From contig JAANWZ010000045.1 in assembly GCA_018263585.1 (NCBI GenBank), positions 1-58,727 of the forward strand: 58,727 nt of DNA, read 5' to 3'. This document shows positions 1 to 58,727 of the stretch, in pieces. The position numbers and the translations under genes are program-made. The DNA is from Calditrichota bacterium (GTDB lineage: Bacteria > Electryoneota > Electryoneia > Electryoneales > Electryoneaceae). The notes beneath the pieces are model-generated. The model was given only the letters and a program-made list of their open reading frames with translations, searched no databases and had not been told where the DNA came from. Numbering within the stretch: the stretch's first letter is position 1; the number at the start of each line of letters is the position of its first letter.

Positions 1-27
1 CGTCGGCTGTGTTTCACATGTGAGCGC

Positions 28-63
28 CGGGTGGCCCGGGGCTTGCCCCGGGTTTCATCCACC
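28..63. repeat. Family G hairpin unit (GGGTGGCCCGGGGCTTGCCCCGGG...CCACC)
   Basis: Self-complementary. Related copies at 133-162, 12187-12215 (inverted), 50373-50402 and 52361-52390. Confidence 0.75.
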
Positions 64-83
64 GTTTGTTCAACCGAGGCGAA

Positions 84-109
84 GGGGACGCTTGCCGGCA
101 AGCGTCCCC
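84..109. repeat. Family D perfect hairpin GGGGACGCTTGC-CG-GCAAGCGTCCCC
   Basis: 12-nt perfect arms. Copies at 12052-12075, 37978-38004 and 52529-52554 differ mainly in the 2-nt loop. Confidence 0.9.
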
Positions 110-132
110 GAACCCAGGAAATAACCATCGGC

Positions 133-162
133 GGGTGGCCCGGGGCTTCAGCCTCGGGTCTC
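133..162 (+). repeat. Family G unit, long variant (GGGTGGCCCGGGGCTTCAGCCTCGGGTCTC)
   Basis: 30-nt string identical to 50373-50402. Confidence 0.85.
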
Positions 163-179
163 GTATCCCGACTGGTCAG

Positions 180-201
180 CCGCGGTTGCAAGCAACCGCG
201 G
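180..201. repeat. Family H hairpin CCGCGGTTGC-AA-GCAACCGCGG
   Basis: Perfect 10-nt arms. Second copy at 50451-50472 with loop GA. Confidence 0.85.
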
Positions 202-211
202 GCCTGTGGGC

Positions 212-403
212 GTGTCATCCTGAACAAGCGGGCCGAGTTGTTTTCAGTTTCAGGCCCGCGCCGTGAAGGATCTACCCGGTAGACCACCCGGCGGTTGTTC
301 CGGATACACCCTGGGGGGTTGTTGCTGGTAGATCCCTTCGCTTCGCTCAGGGCAGGCTCTTCACCCCCGCACCAACAGACGTGCGGGGGATTCAGGATGA
401 CAC
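212..403. mobile_element. Family A MITE-like element, copy A1 (192 bp)
   Basis: Perfect 13-nt terminal inverted repeats GTGTCATCCTGAA (212-224) and TTCAGGATGACAC (391-403), with internal nested hairpins. Related copies at 22109-22272, 25386-25460, 40547-40710 and 50524-50662. No coding capacity. Confidence 0.8.
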
Positions 404-55260: not shown

Positions 55261-55280
55261 CGCTGTTCGACGCGCTGTTG

Positions 55281-55307
55281 CTCGCCCCCGCCGGCCGCGG
55301 GGGCGAG
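55281..55307 (+). terminator. GC-rich stem-loop after the pilin gene (possible attenuating terminator)
   Basis: CTCGCCCCCGC-CGGCC-GCGGGGGCGAG with 11-bp perfect arms and only a weak U-tract. Confidence 0.45.
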
Positions 55308-55347
55308 TCGTTCATCAGTCAGGGCAACTCTGATTTGTGAGGCAGAA

Positions 55348-56403
55348 GTGAAGATTCCGGATCTGCTGCGGTTCTCCGTCAAGTACGGCGCCTCCGACCT
55401 CCACCTTTCCGTGGGTTCGGTGCCGATGATCCGTATCGACGGGGCGCTGAAGAAACTCAATCTGCCCCGCTCCAGCGACGAGGAACTGCGCGACGCTGTC
55501 AGCGAAATCCTCACTCCCGAGCAGTTCGAACGGTTCGAGGAGATGAAGGAGATCGACCTCAGCTACAAGATCGAGGAGCTCGCGCGCTTCCGCGTCAACA
55601 TCTTCGAGCAGATCGAGGGGATCGGCGGCGTGTTCCGCACGATTCCGGAAGAGATCCGTTCCTTCGAGGAGCTGAGTCTGCCGGAGGTGCTGCGCGACCT
55701 CTCGCTCAAGGACCGCGGGCTCGTCCTGCTCACCGGTCCGACAGGGTCGGGCAAGAGCACGACGCTCGCGACGATGATCGACAACGTCAACGAGAACAAG
55801 CAGGTCCACATCATCACGATCGAGGATCCGGTCGAGTTCTTCCACACGTCGAAGAGCTGCATGATCAACCAGCGCGAGCTCGGCGCGTCCACGCACAGTT
55901 TCGCGAACGCGCTGCGCAGTGCGCTGCGTGAGGATCCGGACGTGATCCTCGTCGGGGAGATGCGCGACCTCGAGACGATTTCGCTCGCGCTCACCGCGGC
56001 GGAGACCGGCCACCTCGTGCTCGCGACGTTGCACACGAGCGGCGCGGCGAAGACGATCGACCGGATTATCGACACCTTCCCCGCGTCACAGAAGATGCAG
56101 GTGCGGTCGATGCTCGCCGAGTCGCTGCAGGCTGTCGTCCAGCAGAAGCTGCTCCCGCGCAAGGACGGCAAGGGACGGATCGTCGCCACCGAGGTGATGG
56201 TCGCGAACACAGCGGTCCGCAACCTGATCCGAGAGGACAAGATCTACCAGATCCCTTCGGTGGTCCAATCCGGCGGCAAGGAGGGTATGCACTCGCTGGA
56301 CCAGGACCTGCAACGCCTGCTCCACCAGGGCCTGATCGACCGCGAGACGGCCGCGTTCGTCGCGGACAACCCGAAGCTGTTCGCGGTTGACCTGTCCGCG
56401 TAA
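55348..56403 (+). CDS. pilT: Type IV pilus retraction ATPase PilT
   Basis: GPTGSGKSTT, IITIEDPVEF, LVGEMRDLET, GHLVLATLHT and AVRNLIRE. Confidence 0.88.
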   Translation: MKIPDLLRFSVKYGASDLHLSVGSVPMIRIDGALKKLNLPRSSDEELRDAVSEILTPEQFERFEEMKEIDLSYKIEELARFRVNIFEQIEGIGGVFRTIPEEIRSFEELSLPEVLRDLSLKDRGLVLLTGPTGSGKSTTLATMIDNVNENKQVHIITIEDPVEFFHTSKSCMINQRELGASTHSFANALRSALREDPDVILVGEMRDLETISLALTAAETGHLVLATLHTSGAAKTIDRIIDTFPASQKMQVRSMLAESLQAVVQQKLLPRKDGKGRIVATEVMVANTAVRNLIREDKIYQIPSVVQSGGKEGMHSLDQDLQRLLHQGLIDRETAAFVADNPKLFAVDLSA

Positions 56404-56541
56404 CCGGAACCCGGGCGGTTCCCCGGCCTGGTCCATCACATTGCGGCCGTCACAGGGTGCTTTCCCGGAGCGTGCCCGGCATGGAACGTGTGGGTCTCTG
56501 TAACCGTATCATTAACAAAGCAGTAGCACGGAGGAGAAACG

Positions 56542-57060
56542 GTGCGGAAACTGACTCACTCGCCCGCCCGGCGCACACACGTTTCCCGTCCGGGTGTAAC
56601 CCTGATCGAACTGGTCGTCGCGCTCGTCGTGATCGGCACCGCCGCGGTCGGGACGACGATCGCGGTGTTCAACGCGTACGGCCAGCTCCAGCGCCAGCGT
56701 CACCGCATGACCGCCAACGAGTTCCTCCGCGCGGAAGTTGAATACTGGCAGGGTCGGATTCATATCGCGATGCCGACGCCCGCGGAGATGAGTTCCCGCG
56801 GCCCCGAACGTGTGGTCACAATTGATGAGCGCTCGCCGGGCAACGCTCACGACGACATCATCGGCGTGGTCAGGCGCGAACCGATCGAAGCGCATGTCCT
56901 CATCAACACCACAAACACGTTGCAGTACTACTGGGAGATCCCGGTGGTGATCAACTACACAGAACCGACGTGGGTGTTCGACGGGGAGGAAGTGGACCTC
57001 GAATACCGGCTGGTGGGCTATTGGCTCGAAGCGGAGCCGACCAACTTCAAACCTGATTGA
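56542..57060 (+). CDS. Minor pilin / pseudopilin-like protein
   Basis: GTG start after GGAGGAG. RPG/VTLIELVVALVVIGTAAVG prepilin-type N-terminus. Confidence 0.7.
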   Translation: MRKLTHSPARRTHVSRPGVTLIELVVALVVIGTAAVGTTIAVFNAYGQLQRQRHRMTANEFLRAEVEYWQGRIHIAMPTPAEMSSRGPERVVTIDERSPGNAHDDIIGVVRREPIEAHVLINTTNTLQYYWEIPVVINYTEPTWVFDGEEVDLEYRLVGYWLEAEPTNFKPD

Positions 57061-57091
57061 TTGTGCGACGCTCACCGGGAGGTGACGGACC

Positions 57092-57778
57092 ATGTCCGGC
57101 TTGAATCCGATAAACTCACTTGTTCGTCCGCCTCGACGCCGCGGGTTCACCTTCATCGAGGTGCTGACGGTGATCGTGATTATGGCCGCCGTCTTCGTCG
57201 GGTTCGTGATCACGCTCTATGACGTGGCGGAGCAGATGCATATCTCGTGGCAGCTTCGTGACGCGGAGGAGTTCGGCAACTGGTATGTGAACAAGTTCAT
57301 CGAGAAGATGCGAAACGGGGTCGAACCTGTGATCACTCACGTCACCGCACCCTCCGAGGCGGAGGTGACTTACATGGATCCGGATCAGTATTACCTTCCG
57401 TCAATCTCGCGGGTGCCGGAGCGATACGAGTTCGAATACGACAGCGAGCGGAATCTCCCGGCGATCCGGATCGACGACCAGAAGTTCCGCTATCCTTATT
57501 TCCCGCCGGAGCAGCAGGATGAGCGCGATACGTTCATCGTGCCGTCGGAGACTTTCAAGATCTACCCGTCGACCCAGGGTGAGCTGCCCGAATCGCAGGT
57601 CGACACGTTCAGGCCGTATTTCCTCACGATCGAGTTCGAACTCGTGTACCGGCGCCAGTCGAGCATCCCCGGTGTCGGGGTTTATGAGAAGGTCCTTCCG
57701 TTCACCGGCTCCGCGTACCTGTACAATGAGAAATGGCCGGTGATCGAGCCGCCGACCGAGCCGGAGGAGGAAGAGTAA
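57092..57778 (+). CDS. Minor pilin / pseudopilin-like protein
   Basis: RRRG/FTFIEVLTVIVIMAAVFVGFV prepilin-type N-terminus. Acidic C-terminus. Confidence 0.7.
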   Translation: MSGLNPINSLVRPPRRRGFTFIEVLTVIVIMAAVFVGFVITLYDVAEQMHISWQLRDAEEFGNWYVNKFIEKMRNGVEPVITHVTAPSEAEVTYMDPDQYYLPSISRVPERYEFEYDSERNLPAIRIDDQKFRYPYFPPEQQDERDTFIVPSETFKIYPSTQGELPESQVDTFRPYFLTIEFELVYRRQSSIPGVGVYEKVLPFTGSAYLYNEKWPVIEPPTEPEEEE

Positions 57779-57969
57779 CGGATTTCGGGGGATACGCGCC
57801 CGCGGTTGCATCCGGGGGCGTTGTGAGGCGAGCTTTGAAGATGCAGGCAGGCAACTGATCCGATAGTTCCATGTGTGGATCACGAAGACGCGTCCGCACG
57901 GTGCGGCCGTGGCTTCGACTGTGACGATATGATCCCCGTGCAGGTGGCAGGCGATAACGGAGGTCAGCG

Positions 57970-58727
57970 ATGAGCAAGCTGTTGAGAGAGCGAAAAGGCA
58001 GCGTTCTGATCTATTCGATCGTGCTGATGATGGTGCTCGTGGTCACCGCCGGCGCGTTCATGAAATGGGCCGCGGACGAGGCGTATCAGGCTAACCTGGA
58101 TCTCGCGCGCACGCAGGCATACTACATCGCTCAGAAAGGCGCGATCGAGCGCGGCCTCGGCTTCCTGCGGCAGGCACACACGCTCGAAACCGGGGACACG
58201 CAACTGGAGGACGGCCAGGAGCATCAGTACGGCCACTTCCGGGGTAAGTACGTCGATGCGCGCGTGCTCAGGCTGGGCAGGTATCTCTACGGCGATGAGA
58301 ACGCGGAAGTCATCCAGTCGCGTGCGTGGGATGTGACCGCGACCGGGGTTGTGGAACTGCCGCGCCCGGATGGGACCGTCGCCGAAGTCAGCCACCGCTT
58401 CACGTTGCGCAGCCAGCTGCGCACATGGGCTGACTTCATGTACCTCTCCGATGTCGAAACTGCGCTGCCGCCGGACAGCTCAGGCGCCGAGGTGATCTGG
58501 TTCTTCAGCGGCGACACGCTGTATGGGCGAGTACACTCCAACGACTTCATCGGGATTAAGCAGCGGCCGGTGTTTTATGCCCCTGTGAGCACCGCTCAGG
58601 AGGAGCTCATCGAGGGTCCCGGCTACAACCCGTACTTCGAGTATCCTCCCAAGTTCAACGTCCCGGGAGTGTATTTCCCGGAAACCGCGCAGGAAATCCG
58701 CGACGGTGCTTCGGTCGGCGGCTCGGA
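57970..58727 (+). CDS. PilX-like pilus assembly protein, 5' part (open at window end)
   Basis: ATG after GGAGG. KGSVLIYSIVLMMVLVVTAGAF N-terminal helix. I translated the frame by hand and found no stop up to 58727. Not in the ORF track because it is unterminated. Confidence 0.6.
   Translation, partial: MSKLLRERKGSVLIYSIVLMMVLVVTAGAFMKWAADEAYQANLDLARTQAYYIAQKGAIERGLGFLRQAHTLETGDTQLEDGQEHQYGHFRGKYVDARVLRLGRYLYGDENAEVIQSRAWDVTATGVVELPRPDGTVAEVSHRFTLRSQLRTWADFMYLSDVETALPPDSSGAEVIWFFSGDTLYGRVHSNDFIGIKQRPVFYAPVSTAQEELIEGPGYNPYFEYPPKFNVPGVYFPETAQEIRDGASVGGS

What the first reader, a model, noticed from the sequence alone, without database searches (positions are those of the whole stretch)
1..58727. 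At least eight interlocking families of palindromic/TIR repeats fill nearly every gene-end spacer
I can trace recurrent units by eye:
- A: GTGTCATCCTGAA...TTCAGGATGACAC, 5 copies plus a variant
- B: 2 copies
- C: 3 copies
- D: 4 copies
- E: 7 copies
- F: 2 copies
- G: 5 copies, and H: 2 copies
- J: 2 copies
- O: an outer inverted repeat, 2 copies

Summing my coordinates gives about 3 kb, roughly 5% of the window. With one possible exception (fabD), they lie outside coding sequence and mostly within about 100 nt downstream of a stop codon. This applies to asd, glnE, the T9SS protein, rsbW, atpA, atpG, atpD, the hydrolase, polA, S8, the RlmD-like gene, hsp20, lon, accD and the POT transporter. 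No transposase, RAYT or integrase is present in the window. The density, the number of coexisting families and their nesting are well beyond the REP/BIME situation I know from E. coli.
Basis: partly seen in the sequence, partly recalled or inferred. Interest (0 to 1): 0.65.

Follow-up and report, generated by a model that had tools for sequence, protein, structure and literature searches.

The report
Genome-wide bloom of hairpin repeats
The spacers between housekeeping genes of this uncultured marine/brine bacterium hold about 17 families of small hairpin-forming "selfish DNA" repeats, roughly one per kilobase genome-wide; this is a known kind of element (REP/REPIN-like) at unusual density, and one sub-type has an unusual architecture whose copying enzyme is still unknown.

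Summary
The window holds 45 repeat units from 16 families (2,668 bp, 4.5%). "Nearly every spacer" is overstated: 16 of 38 spacers of at least 30 nt hold repeats, but 12 of 13 spacers of at least 275 nt do.

The families are genome-wide. I found at least 2,786 loci in 17 families, 5.4% of a 2.85-Mb MAG; self-BLAST puts 7.8% in repeats with ten or more partners. 71% of contig ends sit in repeats. Independent metagenome runs reproduce the junctions, so this is not an assembly artefact.

There are two classes.
- **REP-like hairpins (14 families, 26-45 nt).** They occur as singlets, tandem arrays, inverted doublets and mosaics.
- **YGTCATYCTGAAC-headed units (about 1,300).** Each has a hairpin with a conserved GTCNGTYT loop and covarying stems.

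The window has no transposase, but the genome encodes two RAYTs and two IS200-like Y1 genes. Both RAYTs are flanked by inverted arrays of family H2. No DDE transposase or TnpB was found.

Verdict: a REP/RAYT-type system of exceptional density, plus a new structural variant of CGTC/TGTC-tagged repeats whose mobilising enzyme is unidentified.

The parts
23..70 (-). H1 hairpin (GTATGTGAAACCCGGGGCAAGCCCCGGGCCACCCGCC type; 325 loci genome-wide)
   Evidence: nhmmer 48.2 bits; about 110 BLAST partners
80..114 (-). H6 near-perfect 26-nt palindrome GGGGACGCTTGC..GCAAGCGTCCCC (159 loci)
129..174 (-). H1 hairpin, first unit of the recurrent composite H1-H2-M1
   Evidence: H1-/H2- adjacency 85 times
176..209 (-). 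H2 REP (ACAGGCCCGCGGTTGCTCGCAACCGCGGCT; 289 loci), the family that flanks both RAYT genes
212..403 (+).
6220..6352 (.). H28+/H28- inverted pair between convergent genes; supplies the TAG stops of asd and of the gene at 6342-9020(-); A5/T5 runs make it terminator-like
   Evidence: (I19)
11870..12216 (.). Mosaic cluster H66+ H4+ H30+ H6- H18- H8+ H1+; H6 lies inside the H30/H18 doublet
14749..14927 (.). H4+/H4- REPIN-like inverted doublet (25-nt spacer) plus H5-
   Evidence: (I3)
22077..22305 (+). M1 copy (22109-22272) with a 24-nt nested insert and about 30-nt outer arms shared with the copy at 40515-40743; lies inside the atp operon between atpA and atpG
   Evidence: (D1)
22323..22371 (+). H5 hairpin (262 loci)
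23598..23793 (-). M2 doublet (CGTCATCCTGAAG...TTCAGAATGACG) with conserved outer extension, between atpG and atpD
   Evidence: (D10)
25386..25477 (+). Truncated M1: left head plus hairpin plus part of the inner stem, between atpD and atpC
26968..27041 (.). H28+/H28- pair between convergent genes; supplies both TAG stop codons
   Evidence: (I12)
28024..28209 (+). M2-like unit (GCGTCATTCTGAAC..GGAATGACGC, 28054-28174) with an outer inverted repeat GCCGGTTCAGATC/GATCTGAACCGGC; in the divergent spacer upstream of polA
   Evidence: absent from the syntenic spacer of the relative L009
31024..31120 (.). H28+/H28- pair 5 nt after the polA stop
   Evidence: (I21)
32566..32881 (.). M2 doublet (32606-32805) with outer extension, plus H18+
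   Evidence: (D10)
37934..38202 (.). Cluster H4+ H6- H7+ H4- between convergent genes
40515..40743 (+). M1 copy (variant terminus GTTTCATCC), 90% identical over 229 nt to 22077-22305; between hsp20 and lon
   Evidence: (D1)
43237..43420 (.). Cluster H26+ (GTAG-tagged) H22- H30+ H18-; H30/H18 form a REPIN-like doublet CTATGCCC...GGGGCATAG
   Evidence: spanned by single contigs in runs X4 and X5
50328..50703 (.). Cluster H8+ H1- H3- H2-, then a solo TGTC head plus hairpin unit (50483-50523), a compact M1 (50524-50662) and a degenerate right end (to 50703)
52391..52557 (.). Cluster H4+ H7- H6+ between convergent genes

Best explanation
The window is a typical sample of a genome-wide population of non-autonomous, hairpin-forming DNA repeats. 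They most likely spread as folded single-stranded DNA, without duplicating their target, and survive where insertions are harmless.

**Class 1: REP-type hairpins (14 families).**
- They are 26-45 nt imperfect palindromes. Many have a short head such as GTAG, CATG, CGTG, CTATG or ACAG followed by (G)CCC.
- They are arranged as singlets, tandem arrays, inverted REPIN-like doublets and BIME-like mosaics with fixed spacings.
- At least family H2 is the substrate of two RAYT (Y1 HUH) transposases encoded on other contigs. Each RAYT gene sits between inverted H2 arrays.

**Class 2: headed hairpin units (about 1,300).**
- Each unit is about 43 nt: a head YGTCATYCTGAAC, then a hairpin with a conserved 8-nt loop GTCNGTYT and a variable, covarying stem.
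- I infer that they are also moved by a hairpin-reading, HUH-type enzyme, possibly a RAYT.

**What is shown and what is inferred.**
- Shown: repetition, structure, stem covariation, the RAYT flanks, the absence of target duplication, and the genomic distribution.
- Inferred: the transposition chemistry itself (by analogy with E. coli TnpA-REP and IS200/IS605), the enzyme for class 2, and any effect on transcripts.
For: **Abundance**
- Self-BLAST: 7.8% of genome bases have at least 10 repeat partners.
- 2,786 loci in 17 families, 152.7 kb.
- Copies cluster at 0-2 mismatches from each family master sequence.

**Distribution**
- 96% of loci are intergenic.
- Median distance from a stop codon to the nearest repeat is 41 nt; from a repeat to the next start codon it is 120 nt.
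- Repeats occur in 56% of convergent, 46% of divergent and 30% of tandem spacers.
- Strand bias relative to transcription is weak or absent: nominal p is 0.01-0.02 for H6, H8 and M1 and 3e-4 for H3.

**Organisation**
- 1,238 clusters of up to 11 units, with fixed-offset partnerships: H1/H2 85 times, H18/H30 39 times, and H2 to M1 40 times at a 4-nt gap.

**RAYT link**
- PF01797 hits four ORFs.
- The C160 and C81 ORFs score 81.7 and 91.7 bits against the NF047646 cut-off of 80.
- Both are flanked by H2-type units, + orientation upstream and - downstream.
- RAYT homologues occur in 15 of 16 genomes of the taxonomic family. Several are flanked by inverted hairpins with xGTGCCC heads like those of H7 and H8.

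**Class 2 features**
- No target-site duplication at any offset or length: observed counts equal shuffled counts.
- Stem positions 1-7 are 66-92% paired (82-92% for positions 1-6) against 34-59% in shuffles, using CG, GC, TA and AT pairs, while the loop stays conserved.
- GTCWGTTT occurs 374 times, 266 of them in a hairpin context; the reversed control occurs 41 times, none in a hairpin.
- Units form tandem arrays with a 40-59-nt period and inverted pairs 110-210 nt apart.
- No DDE_Tnp_1, rve or TnpB domain is found in the assembly.

**Not an artefact**
- Six independent runs from two studies hold the locus; in the four runs laid on each stretch, the junction contigs match the window with 0 differences.

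**Not terminators**
- Three elements lie inside the atp operon, which ends in a unique canonical terminator.
- The GC-rich hairpins have no T-run.
Against: - No transposition event was observed. Seven repeat-bearing spacers show no presence/absence polymorphism in the four runs laid on each stretch.
- The nearest available relative is only 71% identical in PolA, so there are no clean empty sites.
- Only family H2 is physically linked to a RAYT. At least 9 other headed families, and H1, H3, H5 and H6, have no cognate gene in this 92%-complete MAG.
- Class 2 has no identified enzyme. The IS200-like Y1 genes have unrelated flanks, both here and in nine relatives.
- Only three DDE/TnpB Pfam families were tested, and MAGs often lose IS copies.
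- Gene calls come from my own codon-usage caller, so the spacer classes are approximate.
Confidence: 0.8

Rival explanations
1. The hairpins are mainly host-selected functional elements: transcription terminators, mRNA 3'-end stabilisers, or binding sites for nucleoid proteins or gyrase. Their repetition would then reflect selection for function rather than mobility.
For: - Units lie closer to stop codons than to start codons (41 against 120 nt median) and are densest in convergent spacers, where they make up 34.5% of the bases.
- H28 pairs have A5/T5 runs, sit exactly on stop codons and are flagged as terminator-like.
- REPs are known to stabilise mRNAs and bind IHF and gyrase in E. coli (background in PMC3733652, PMC3479197).
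Against: - Strand bias relative to transcription is weak or absent.
- The GC-rich families lack U-tracts.
- Three elements sit inside the atp operon, upstream of essential genes, while the operon has its own unique terminator.
- 46% of divergent spacers also carry repeats.
- Hundreds of copies are conserved at the nucleotide level, including loops and heads. The families are private to this lineage, so orthologous spacers in relatives do without them.
- RAYT genes are flanked by the same units.
Confidence: 0.1
2. The 110-220-nt elements with terminal inverted repeats (M1-M3, the reader's family A) are ordinary MITEs. They would be deletion derivatives of a DDE-transposase insertion sequence that is missing from this fragmented MAG.
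For: - They have 13-nt or longer terminal inverted repeats, a size typical of MITEs, and hundreds of copies.
- 71% of contig ends fall in repeats, so multi-copy IS elements could have been lost from the bin.
- Only three transposase domain families were tested.
Against: - There is no target-site duplication of 2-8 nt at any boundary offset across 306 paired copies.
- The end unit also occurs alone and in 43-nt tandem arrays.
- Each end carries a hairpin with a conserved loop and covarying stem, a signature of structure-specific (HUH-type) recognition rather than double-stranded TIR recognition.
- No DDE_Tnp_1, rve or TnpB domain is present in 2.85 Mb.
Confidence: 0.08
3. The repeats are assembly or binning artefacts: collapsed or chimeric joins.
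For: The window starts inside a repeat cluster. 233 of 330 contig ends lie within 200 nt of a repeat, against 9.6% for random positions.
Against: - In the four runs laid on each stretch, Logan contigs give the same unique-to-repeat junctions and locus-specific internal segments with 0 differences. Some single contigs span whole clusters, for example 42314-43357.
- Repeat word depth is about 60-80 times single-copy depth in every run.
- Estimated MAG contamination is 0.01%.
Confidence: 0.01

Closest known systems
REP / BIME / REPIN elements with RAYT (TnpA-REP) Y1 transposases (E. coli, Pseudomonas, Stenotrophomonas; PMC3116915, PMC3479197, PMC5581495, PMC3686654)
   Same: - Short, imperfect, extragenic palindromes in hundreds of copies.
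- Short 5' heads, including true GTAG in H22, H26 and H66.
- Singlets, tandem arrays, inverted doublets and mosaics.
- Master-sequence population structure.
- Single-copy RAYT genes flanked by inverted REPs (H2).
- No target duplication.
   Different: - At least 14 coexisting hairpin families but only two RAYTs, both with H2-type flanks.
- Density of about 1 unit per kb and 5-8% of a 2.85-Mb genome.
- Most heads are GTAG variants (CATG, CGTG, CTATG, ACAG + GCCC).
- Units are frequent in divergent spacers.
- The lineage is an uncultured bacterium from a small phylum outside the Proteobacteria.
CGTC/TGTC-tagged REP superfamily (Di Nocera, De Gregorio and Rocco 2013, PMC3733652; includes Neisseria dRS3 and Rickettsia RPE-4/6)
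   Same: - Terminal YGTC tag (TGTC 61%, CGTC 33%) followed by AT.
- Mostly head-to-head inverted dimers.
- No dedicated transposase known.
- Often clustered.
   Different: - In the published families an 8-9-bp stem starts directly after the tag and closes a 4-5-nt loop.
- Here the 9 nt after the tag (ATCCTGAAC) pair only with a partner 110-210 nt away.
- Each unit carries a separate hairpin with an 8-nt conserved loop GTCNGTYT and variable stems.
- Units also form 43-nt tandem arrays.
Neisseria Correia elements and other bacterial MITEs
   Same: Elements of 100-200 nt with terminal inverted repeats, hundreds of copies, intergenic and within operons, and able to be co-transcribed.
   Different: - Correia elements and other MITEs make target duplications (TA for Correia; my knowledge) and derive from DDE insertion sequences.
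- Here there is no duplication, no DDE gene, and structure-specific subterminal hairpins.
IS200/IS605-family ends
   Same: Subterminal hairpins are recognised as single-stranded DNA, there is no target duplication, and Y1 HUH enzymes are present in the genome.
   Different: - IS200/IS605 ends are asymmetric, lack terminal inverted repeats, and insert next to a fixed tetra- or pentanucleotide.
- M elements are symmetric and show no conserved one-sided target.
- The resident IS200-like genes have unrelated flanks.

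Membership tests
REP/REPIN-RAYT system | Short (20-45 nt) imperfect palindromes, high copy number, extragenic | tested here: met
   14 families with 42-325 loci each; 96% of loci intergenic
REP/REPIN-RAYT system | Conserved unpaired head tetranucleotide (GTAG) next to the stem | tested here: inconclusive
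   GTAG itself occurs in H22, H26 and H66. Variants CATG, (A/T)CGTG, CTATG and ACAG followed by (G)CCC occur in H4, H7, H8, H18, H30 and H2. H1, H3, H5, H6 and H28 are unclear.
REP/REPIN-RAYT system | RAYT gene flanked by inverted copies of the same REP | tested here: met
   Met for H2 only. C160:3819-4397 and C81:17352-17942 pass NF047646, with H2 units in + orientation upstream and - downstream. No cognate gene was found for the other families.
REP/REPIN-RAYT system | Inverted doublets (REPINs) and mosaic clusters (BIMEs) | tested here: met
   H4+/H4- 13 times, H18+/H30- 39 times, H28+/H28- 14 times; 668 multi-unit clusters
REP/REPIN-RAYT system | RAYT-dependent cleavage or mobility | not testable with these tools
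   Needs biochemistry or genetics. No insertion polymorphism was seen in public runs.
CGTC/TGTC-tagged REPs (PMC3733652) | Terminal CGTC/TGTC tag followed by AT | tested here: met
   Ends are G[T 61% / C 33%]GTCAT...ATGAC[A/G]C in 306 pairs
CGTC/TGTC-tagged REPs (PMC3733652) | 8-9-bp stem directly after the tag, closing a 4-5-nt loop | tested here: not met
   Almost no head pairs lie closer than about 110 nt. The local hairpin starts after the 12-nt head and has an 8-nt loop.
CGTC/TGTC-tagged REPs (PMC3733652) | Predominantly head-to-head dimers | tested here: met
   About 300 inverted pairs 110-210 nt apart, but also about 258 same-orientation adjacencies
DDE-type MITE | Target-site duplication flanking the TIRs | tested here: not met
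   Observed counts equal shuffled counts for k = 2-8 at boundary offsets 0-3
DDE-type MITE | Cognate autonomous IS with the same termini | tested here: not met
   No DDE_Tnp_1, rve or TnpB domain in the assembly. This is limited to three families and an incomplete MAG.
Intrinsic terminators | GC-rich stem followed by a T-run, oriented with the upstream gene | tested here: not met
   Only H28 fits. The consensus flanks of the other families lack T-runs, and strand bias is weak or absent.
Known structured RNA families (Rfam 15) | Match at the gathering score | tested here: not met
   0 matches in the window

The most novel reading that the evidence does not exclude
The roughly 1,300 YGTCATYCTGAAC-headed units may be substrates of a hairpin- and loop-reading HUH/Y1 enzyme resident in this genome. 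Their features are a conserved GTCNGTYT loop, covarying stems, no target duplication, and both tandem and inverted arrays. The best candidate is a RAYT, because the H2 REP abuts the M1 head at a fixed 4-nt distance in 40 places, including the RAYT locus itself.

If so, this would be the first enzyme-substrate pairing for the CGTC/TGTC-tagged repeat superfamily, which 'apparently lacks a dedicated transposase' (PMC3733652). It would come in a genome where only four candidate enzymes need testing.
Probability: 0.25. Interest if true: 0.7.

Novelty: new variant of a known kind. Interest (0 to 1): 0.45.

Why it matters
- **Repeat load.** Bacterial genomes are usually repeat-poor. Here a small (about 3 Mb) genome tolerates about one hairpin repeat per kilobase, including inside the atp operon, so about 28% of its non-coding DNA is repeat. 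That makes it a natural system for asking how REPIN-like populations are limited, how many families can coexist with few RAYTs, and how operon expression copes with them.
- **An open question becomes testable.** What moves CGTC/TGTC-tagged repeats has been unknown since 2013. This genome has more than 1,000 units with a sharply defined loop and head signature, and only four recognisable transposase-type genes, all Y1 HUH.
- **Practical effect.** These repeats are why the MAG is fragmented: 71% of contig ends lie in them. They will also generate spurious small ORFs in annotation.

Tried and rejected
1. **Rfam.** A gathering-threshold scan of the window gave 0 matches, and there are no tRNA genes.
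2. **DDE-MITE reading of family A.** Rejected: no target duplication and no DDE_Tnp_1, rve or TnpB in the assembly.
3. **IS200-like Y1 genes (C14, C105) as the M-element enzyme.**
   - Their flanks are xCCCCGAAGGGGx hairpin, GAATAGC, then a second hairpin.
   - This arrangement is conserved around homologues in nine relatives and is unrelated to YGTCAT heads.
   - The TCATCCCC...GGGGATGA hairpin occurs at only two contig ends.
4. **Head plus loop signature elsewhere.**
   - It has 0 matches in 78 other genomes of the phylum.
   - The 6 viral and 85 metagenome hits are at chance level and lack hairpin context.
   - Looser M1-like ends, with other loops, do occur at low copy in three relatives.
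5. **A shared GATCC-type 3' tail across hairpin families.** The enrichment is weak (13-24% against 8.6% background), so I dropped it.
6. **RNA evidence.** No RNA runs hold the locus.
7. **Empty-site alleles.** None were seen in the runs laid; the listed joints have short sides and come from other repeat copies.
8. **Literature search for the terminus sequence.** It returned only unrelated primer matches.
9. **First k-mer script.** It timed out and was rewritten.

Full report

Yes. The repeat finder returns dozens of direct and inverted families concentrated in spacers. The window is contig C106 of a 2.85-Mb, 165-contig, 67% GC MAG (92% complete, 0.01% contamination).

BLAST of the window against the genome shows that each spacer cluster has 20-230 partners elsewhere. 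Genome-wide self-BLAST puts 7.8% of all bases in repeats with at least 10 partners, and 4.8% of the window.

I built families de novo from over-represented 13-mers and from TIR pairs, then annotated them with nhmmer.
- There are 14 hairpin families and three longer TIR families (M1-M3).
- Together they give 2,786 non-overlapping loci, 152.7 kb or 5.4% of the assembly. This is a lower bound.
- The window holds 45 units of 16 families (2,668 bp, 4.5%), none inside a called gene.
- The title overstates one point. Only 16 of 38 spacers of at least 30 nt carry repeats, although 12 of 13 spacers of at least 275 nt do, so the repeats account for the long spacers.

**2. Is it an artefact, or confined to this window?**

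Neither.
- 233 of 330 contig ends lie within 200 nt of a repeat, against 9.6% for random positions. The repeats break the assembly, so copy numbers are underestimates.
- Six metagenome runs from two studies (marine and brine) hold 77-98% of the locus's sampled words.
- I laid four runs on each of two stretches. Their Logan contigs reproduce the unique-to-repeat junctions and the locus-specific internal pieces with 0 differences. Some single contigs span whole clusters.
- Repeat word depth is about 60-80 times single-copy depth.

**3. Anatomy of class 1, the REP-like hairpins**

There are 14 families (H1...H66), each 26-45 nt, with 42-325 loci.
- Copies cluster at 0-2 mismatches from a master sequence.
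- Many have a short head next to the stem. GTAG occurs in H22, H26 and H66. CATG, CGTG, CTATG or ACAG followed by (G)CCC occur in H4, H7, H8, H18, H30 and H2.
- They form 1,238 clusters of up to 11 units with preferred partners at fixed offsets: H1/H2 85 times, H1/H3 59, H5/H7 49 and H18+/H30- 39.
- The H18/H30 pair is a REPIN-like doublet, CTATGCCC...GGGGCATAG.
- H28 is different. It is AT-richer, occurs as inverted pairs with A5/T5 runs, and is terminator-like. It supplies the TAG stop codon of four window genes.

**4. Anatomy of class 2, the headed units**

The basic unit is about 43 nt. It has the head YGTCATYCTGAAC (TGTC 61%, CGTC 33%) followed by a hairpin. The genome holds 1,318 heads.
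- The 8-nt loop GTCNGTYT is conserved while the stem varies.
- Stem positions 1-7 are 66-92% paired (82-92% for positions 1-6) against 34-59% in shuffles, and CG, GC, TA and AT pairs are all used.
- GTCWGTTT occurs 374 times, 266 of them in a hairpin context. The reversed control motif occurs 41 times, never in a hairpin.
- Units occur in tandem arrays with a 40-59-nt period and as inverted pairs 110-210 nt apart.
- The inverted pairs are M1 (341 loci), M2 (123) and M3 (93). They share an inner stem GTGAAGGATCTCGA/TCGAGATCCTTCAC.
- There is no target-site duplication at any boundary offset or length.

**5. Distribution relative to genes**

I used my own codon-usage gene caller (2,060 genes, 81% coding).
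- 96% of units are intergenic.
- 56% of convergent, 46% of divergent and 30% of tandem spacers hold at least one unit.
- The median distance from a stop codon to the nearest repeat is 41 nt, against 120 nt from a repeat to the next start codon.
- Orientation relative to transcription is at most weakly biased (nominal p 0.01-0.02 for H6, H8 and M1; 3e-4 for H3).
- Three elements lie inside the atp operon: atpA-M1+H5-atpG-M2-atpD-M1 stub-atpC. The operon ends in a unique canonical terminator.

This pattern fits tolerated selfish insertions filtered by selection better than orientation-dependent RNA elements. The exception is H28.

**6. Enzymes**

The window has no transposase, but the genome has four Y1 HUH ORFs.
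- C160:3819-4397 and C81:17352-17942 pass the NCBIfam RAYT model (81.7 and 91.7 bits against a cut-off of 80). They are 46% identical to each other.
- C105 and C14 are IS200-type.
- All four have 49-55% GC in a 67% GC genome.
- Both RAYTs sit between arrays of H2-type hairpins, in + orientation upstream and - downstream. This is the canonical RAYT/REP arrangement (PMC3116915, PMC3733652).
- RAYT homologues occur in 15 of 16 genomes of the taxonomic family, at 1-12 copies. Several are flanked by inverted hairpins whose heads (xGTGCCC) resemble H7 and H8.
- DDE_Tnp_1, rve and TnpB domains are absent from the assembly.
- The IS200-like clade is flanked, here and in nine relatives, by its own conserved hairpin architecture, which is unrelated to YGTCAT heads.
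- The only physical hint for class 2 is the fixed 4-nt H2-to-M1 junction. It occurs 40 times, including at the C160 RAYT locus.

**7. Phylogenetic spread**

- Full-length M1 occurs only in this genome among 31 relatives.
- The head plus loop signature occurs 216 times here and 0 times in 78 other genomes of the phylum.
- Viral and metagenome scans for the signature gave only chance-level hits.
- Looser M1-like ends with other loops exist at low copy in three relatives. The superfamily is therefore older, and has bloomed in this lineage.
- The syntenic spacer upstream of polA in the nearest available MAG (71% PolA identity) lacks the M2 element and carries different hairpins.
- In equal 400-kb samples, repeats of at least 5 copies cover 3.7-4.2% here, against 0.25% and 2.1% in two genomes of the same family. 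Repeats of at least 10 copies cover 1.7-2.2%, against 0-0.02%.

I did not establish the organism's name. The best named PolA relatives are Longimicrobium and Gemmatimonadota at 43-46% identity. The phylum has only 79 species genomes in the collection.

**8. Mechanism**

The best-supported reading (0.8) has four parts.
- Class 1 units are REP/REPIN-type elements mobilised in trans by RAYTs acting on folded single-stranded DNA. The physical linkage is shown for H2. The chemistry is inferred from E. coli TnpA-REP (PMC3479197) and from REPIN population genetics (PMC3116915, PMC5581495).
- Class 2 units are a structural variant of CGTC/TGTC-tagged repeats (PMC3733652). They are recognised through a sequence-specific loop on a structure-specific stem and spread without target duplication. 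This is most simply explained by an HUH-type enzyme, whose identity is unknown.
- Units accumulate where they do no harm: downstream of genes and next to or inside each other. This produces the mosaics.
- Rival readings are a host-selected terminator or stabiliser function (0.1; plausible for H28 only), a DDE MITE with a lost master copy (0.08) and an assembly artefact (0.01).

**9. Comparison and novelty**

- REP/RAYT/REPIN membership is met for H2. It is plausible but unproven for the other headed families.
- Class 2 shares the tag, the AT dinucleotide and the head-to-head dimers of the CGTC family. It fails the defining stem-loop geometry.
- Class 2 also fails the MITE criteria of target duplication and a cognate IS.

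I therefore file the whole as a new variant of a known kind. It stands out for its density (about 1 unit per kb, about 28% of non-coding DNA) and for the number of coexisting families. It also offers a small candidate set of four Y1 genes for the unsolved question of what moves CGTC/TGTC-tagged repeats.

Earlier notes of this scan on other contigs of the same genome reached similar 'REP-like, enzyme unknown' verdicts. The RAYT-H2 linkage and the genome-wide statistics are added here.

Noticed in passing
window 6220-6352, 26968-27041, 31024-31120: H28 inverted pairs (46% GC, with A5/T5 runs) look like bidirectional intrinsic terminators. They provide the TAG stop codons of four genes: asd at 6229-6231, and the stops at 6342-6344(-), 26976-26978 and 27037-27039(-). 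Genome-wide, 21 of 59 H28 units partly overlap gene ends.
   Followed up: partly
G000 C160:3819-4397, C81:17352-17942, C105:7991-8470, C14:41021-41524: All four Y1 transposase genes have 49-55% GC in a 67% GC genome, and a codon-usage gene caller missed them. This could mean foreign origin or unusual constraints.
   Followed up: partly
L183-L190, L200 (relatives) and G000 C14/C105: A single-copy IS200-like Y1 clade is present in 17 of 79 genomes of the phylum. In the nine relatives I inspected, the gene is flanked by the same architecture: an xCCCCGAAGGGGx hairpin, GAATAGC and a second hairpin upstream, mirrored downstream. It looks like a domesticated or vertically kept element.
   Followed up: partly
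window 11594-11704 (C-terminus of gene 9207-11837): A coding repeat of about 110 nt (consensus NPFNP...LPEAAEVTVAVYNVLGRQVATLADG-like; 99 k-mer occurrences genome-wide) resembles a T9SS C-terminal sorting domain. Pfam gave no hit for this protein at 1e-5.
   Followed up: no
G000 C158:30938-31420 and elsewhere: Long tandem arrays of the heptamer CAGATGT (97 k-mer occurrences), readable as an MSDVRCQ-repeat ORF.
   Followed up: no
window 52600-58727: The last 6 kb has no repeats at all and a lower GC content (61-63% against 65-70%), despite several spacers of 140-380 nt.
   Followed up: no
window 25920-25942: A unique canonical intrinsic terminator (GCCCCGCGAATCGGTCGCGGGGT followed by TTTT) lies after atpC. 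The organism therefore uses ordinary terminators alongside the repeats.
   Followed up: yes
G000, low-GC uncalled ORFs (e.g. C124:1875-2616, C3:8052-8813, C151:618-1424, C48:8372-9337): A set of 43-50% GC ORFs lies outside the codon-usage gene calls. By eye some look like defence, toxin-antitoxin or methyltransferase genes. I did not scan them.
   Followed up: no
G000 C14:41531-41852 and C45:44604-44836: A local array of TCATCCCC(N3)GGGGATGA hairpins next to the C14 Y1 gene continues at the end of contig C45. The two contigs probably join there.
   Followed up: no
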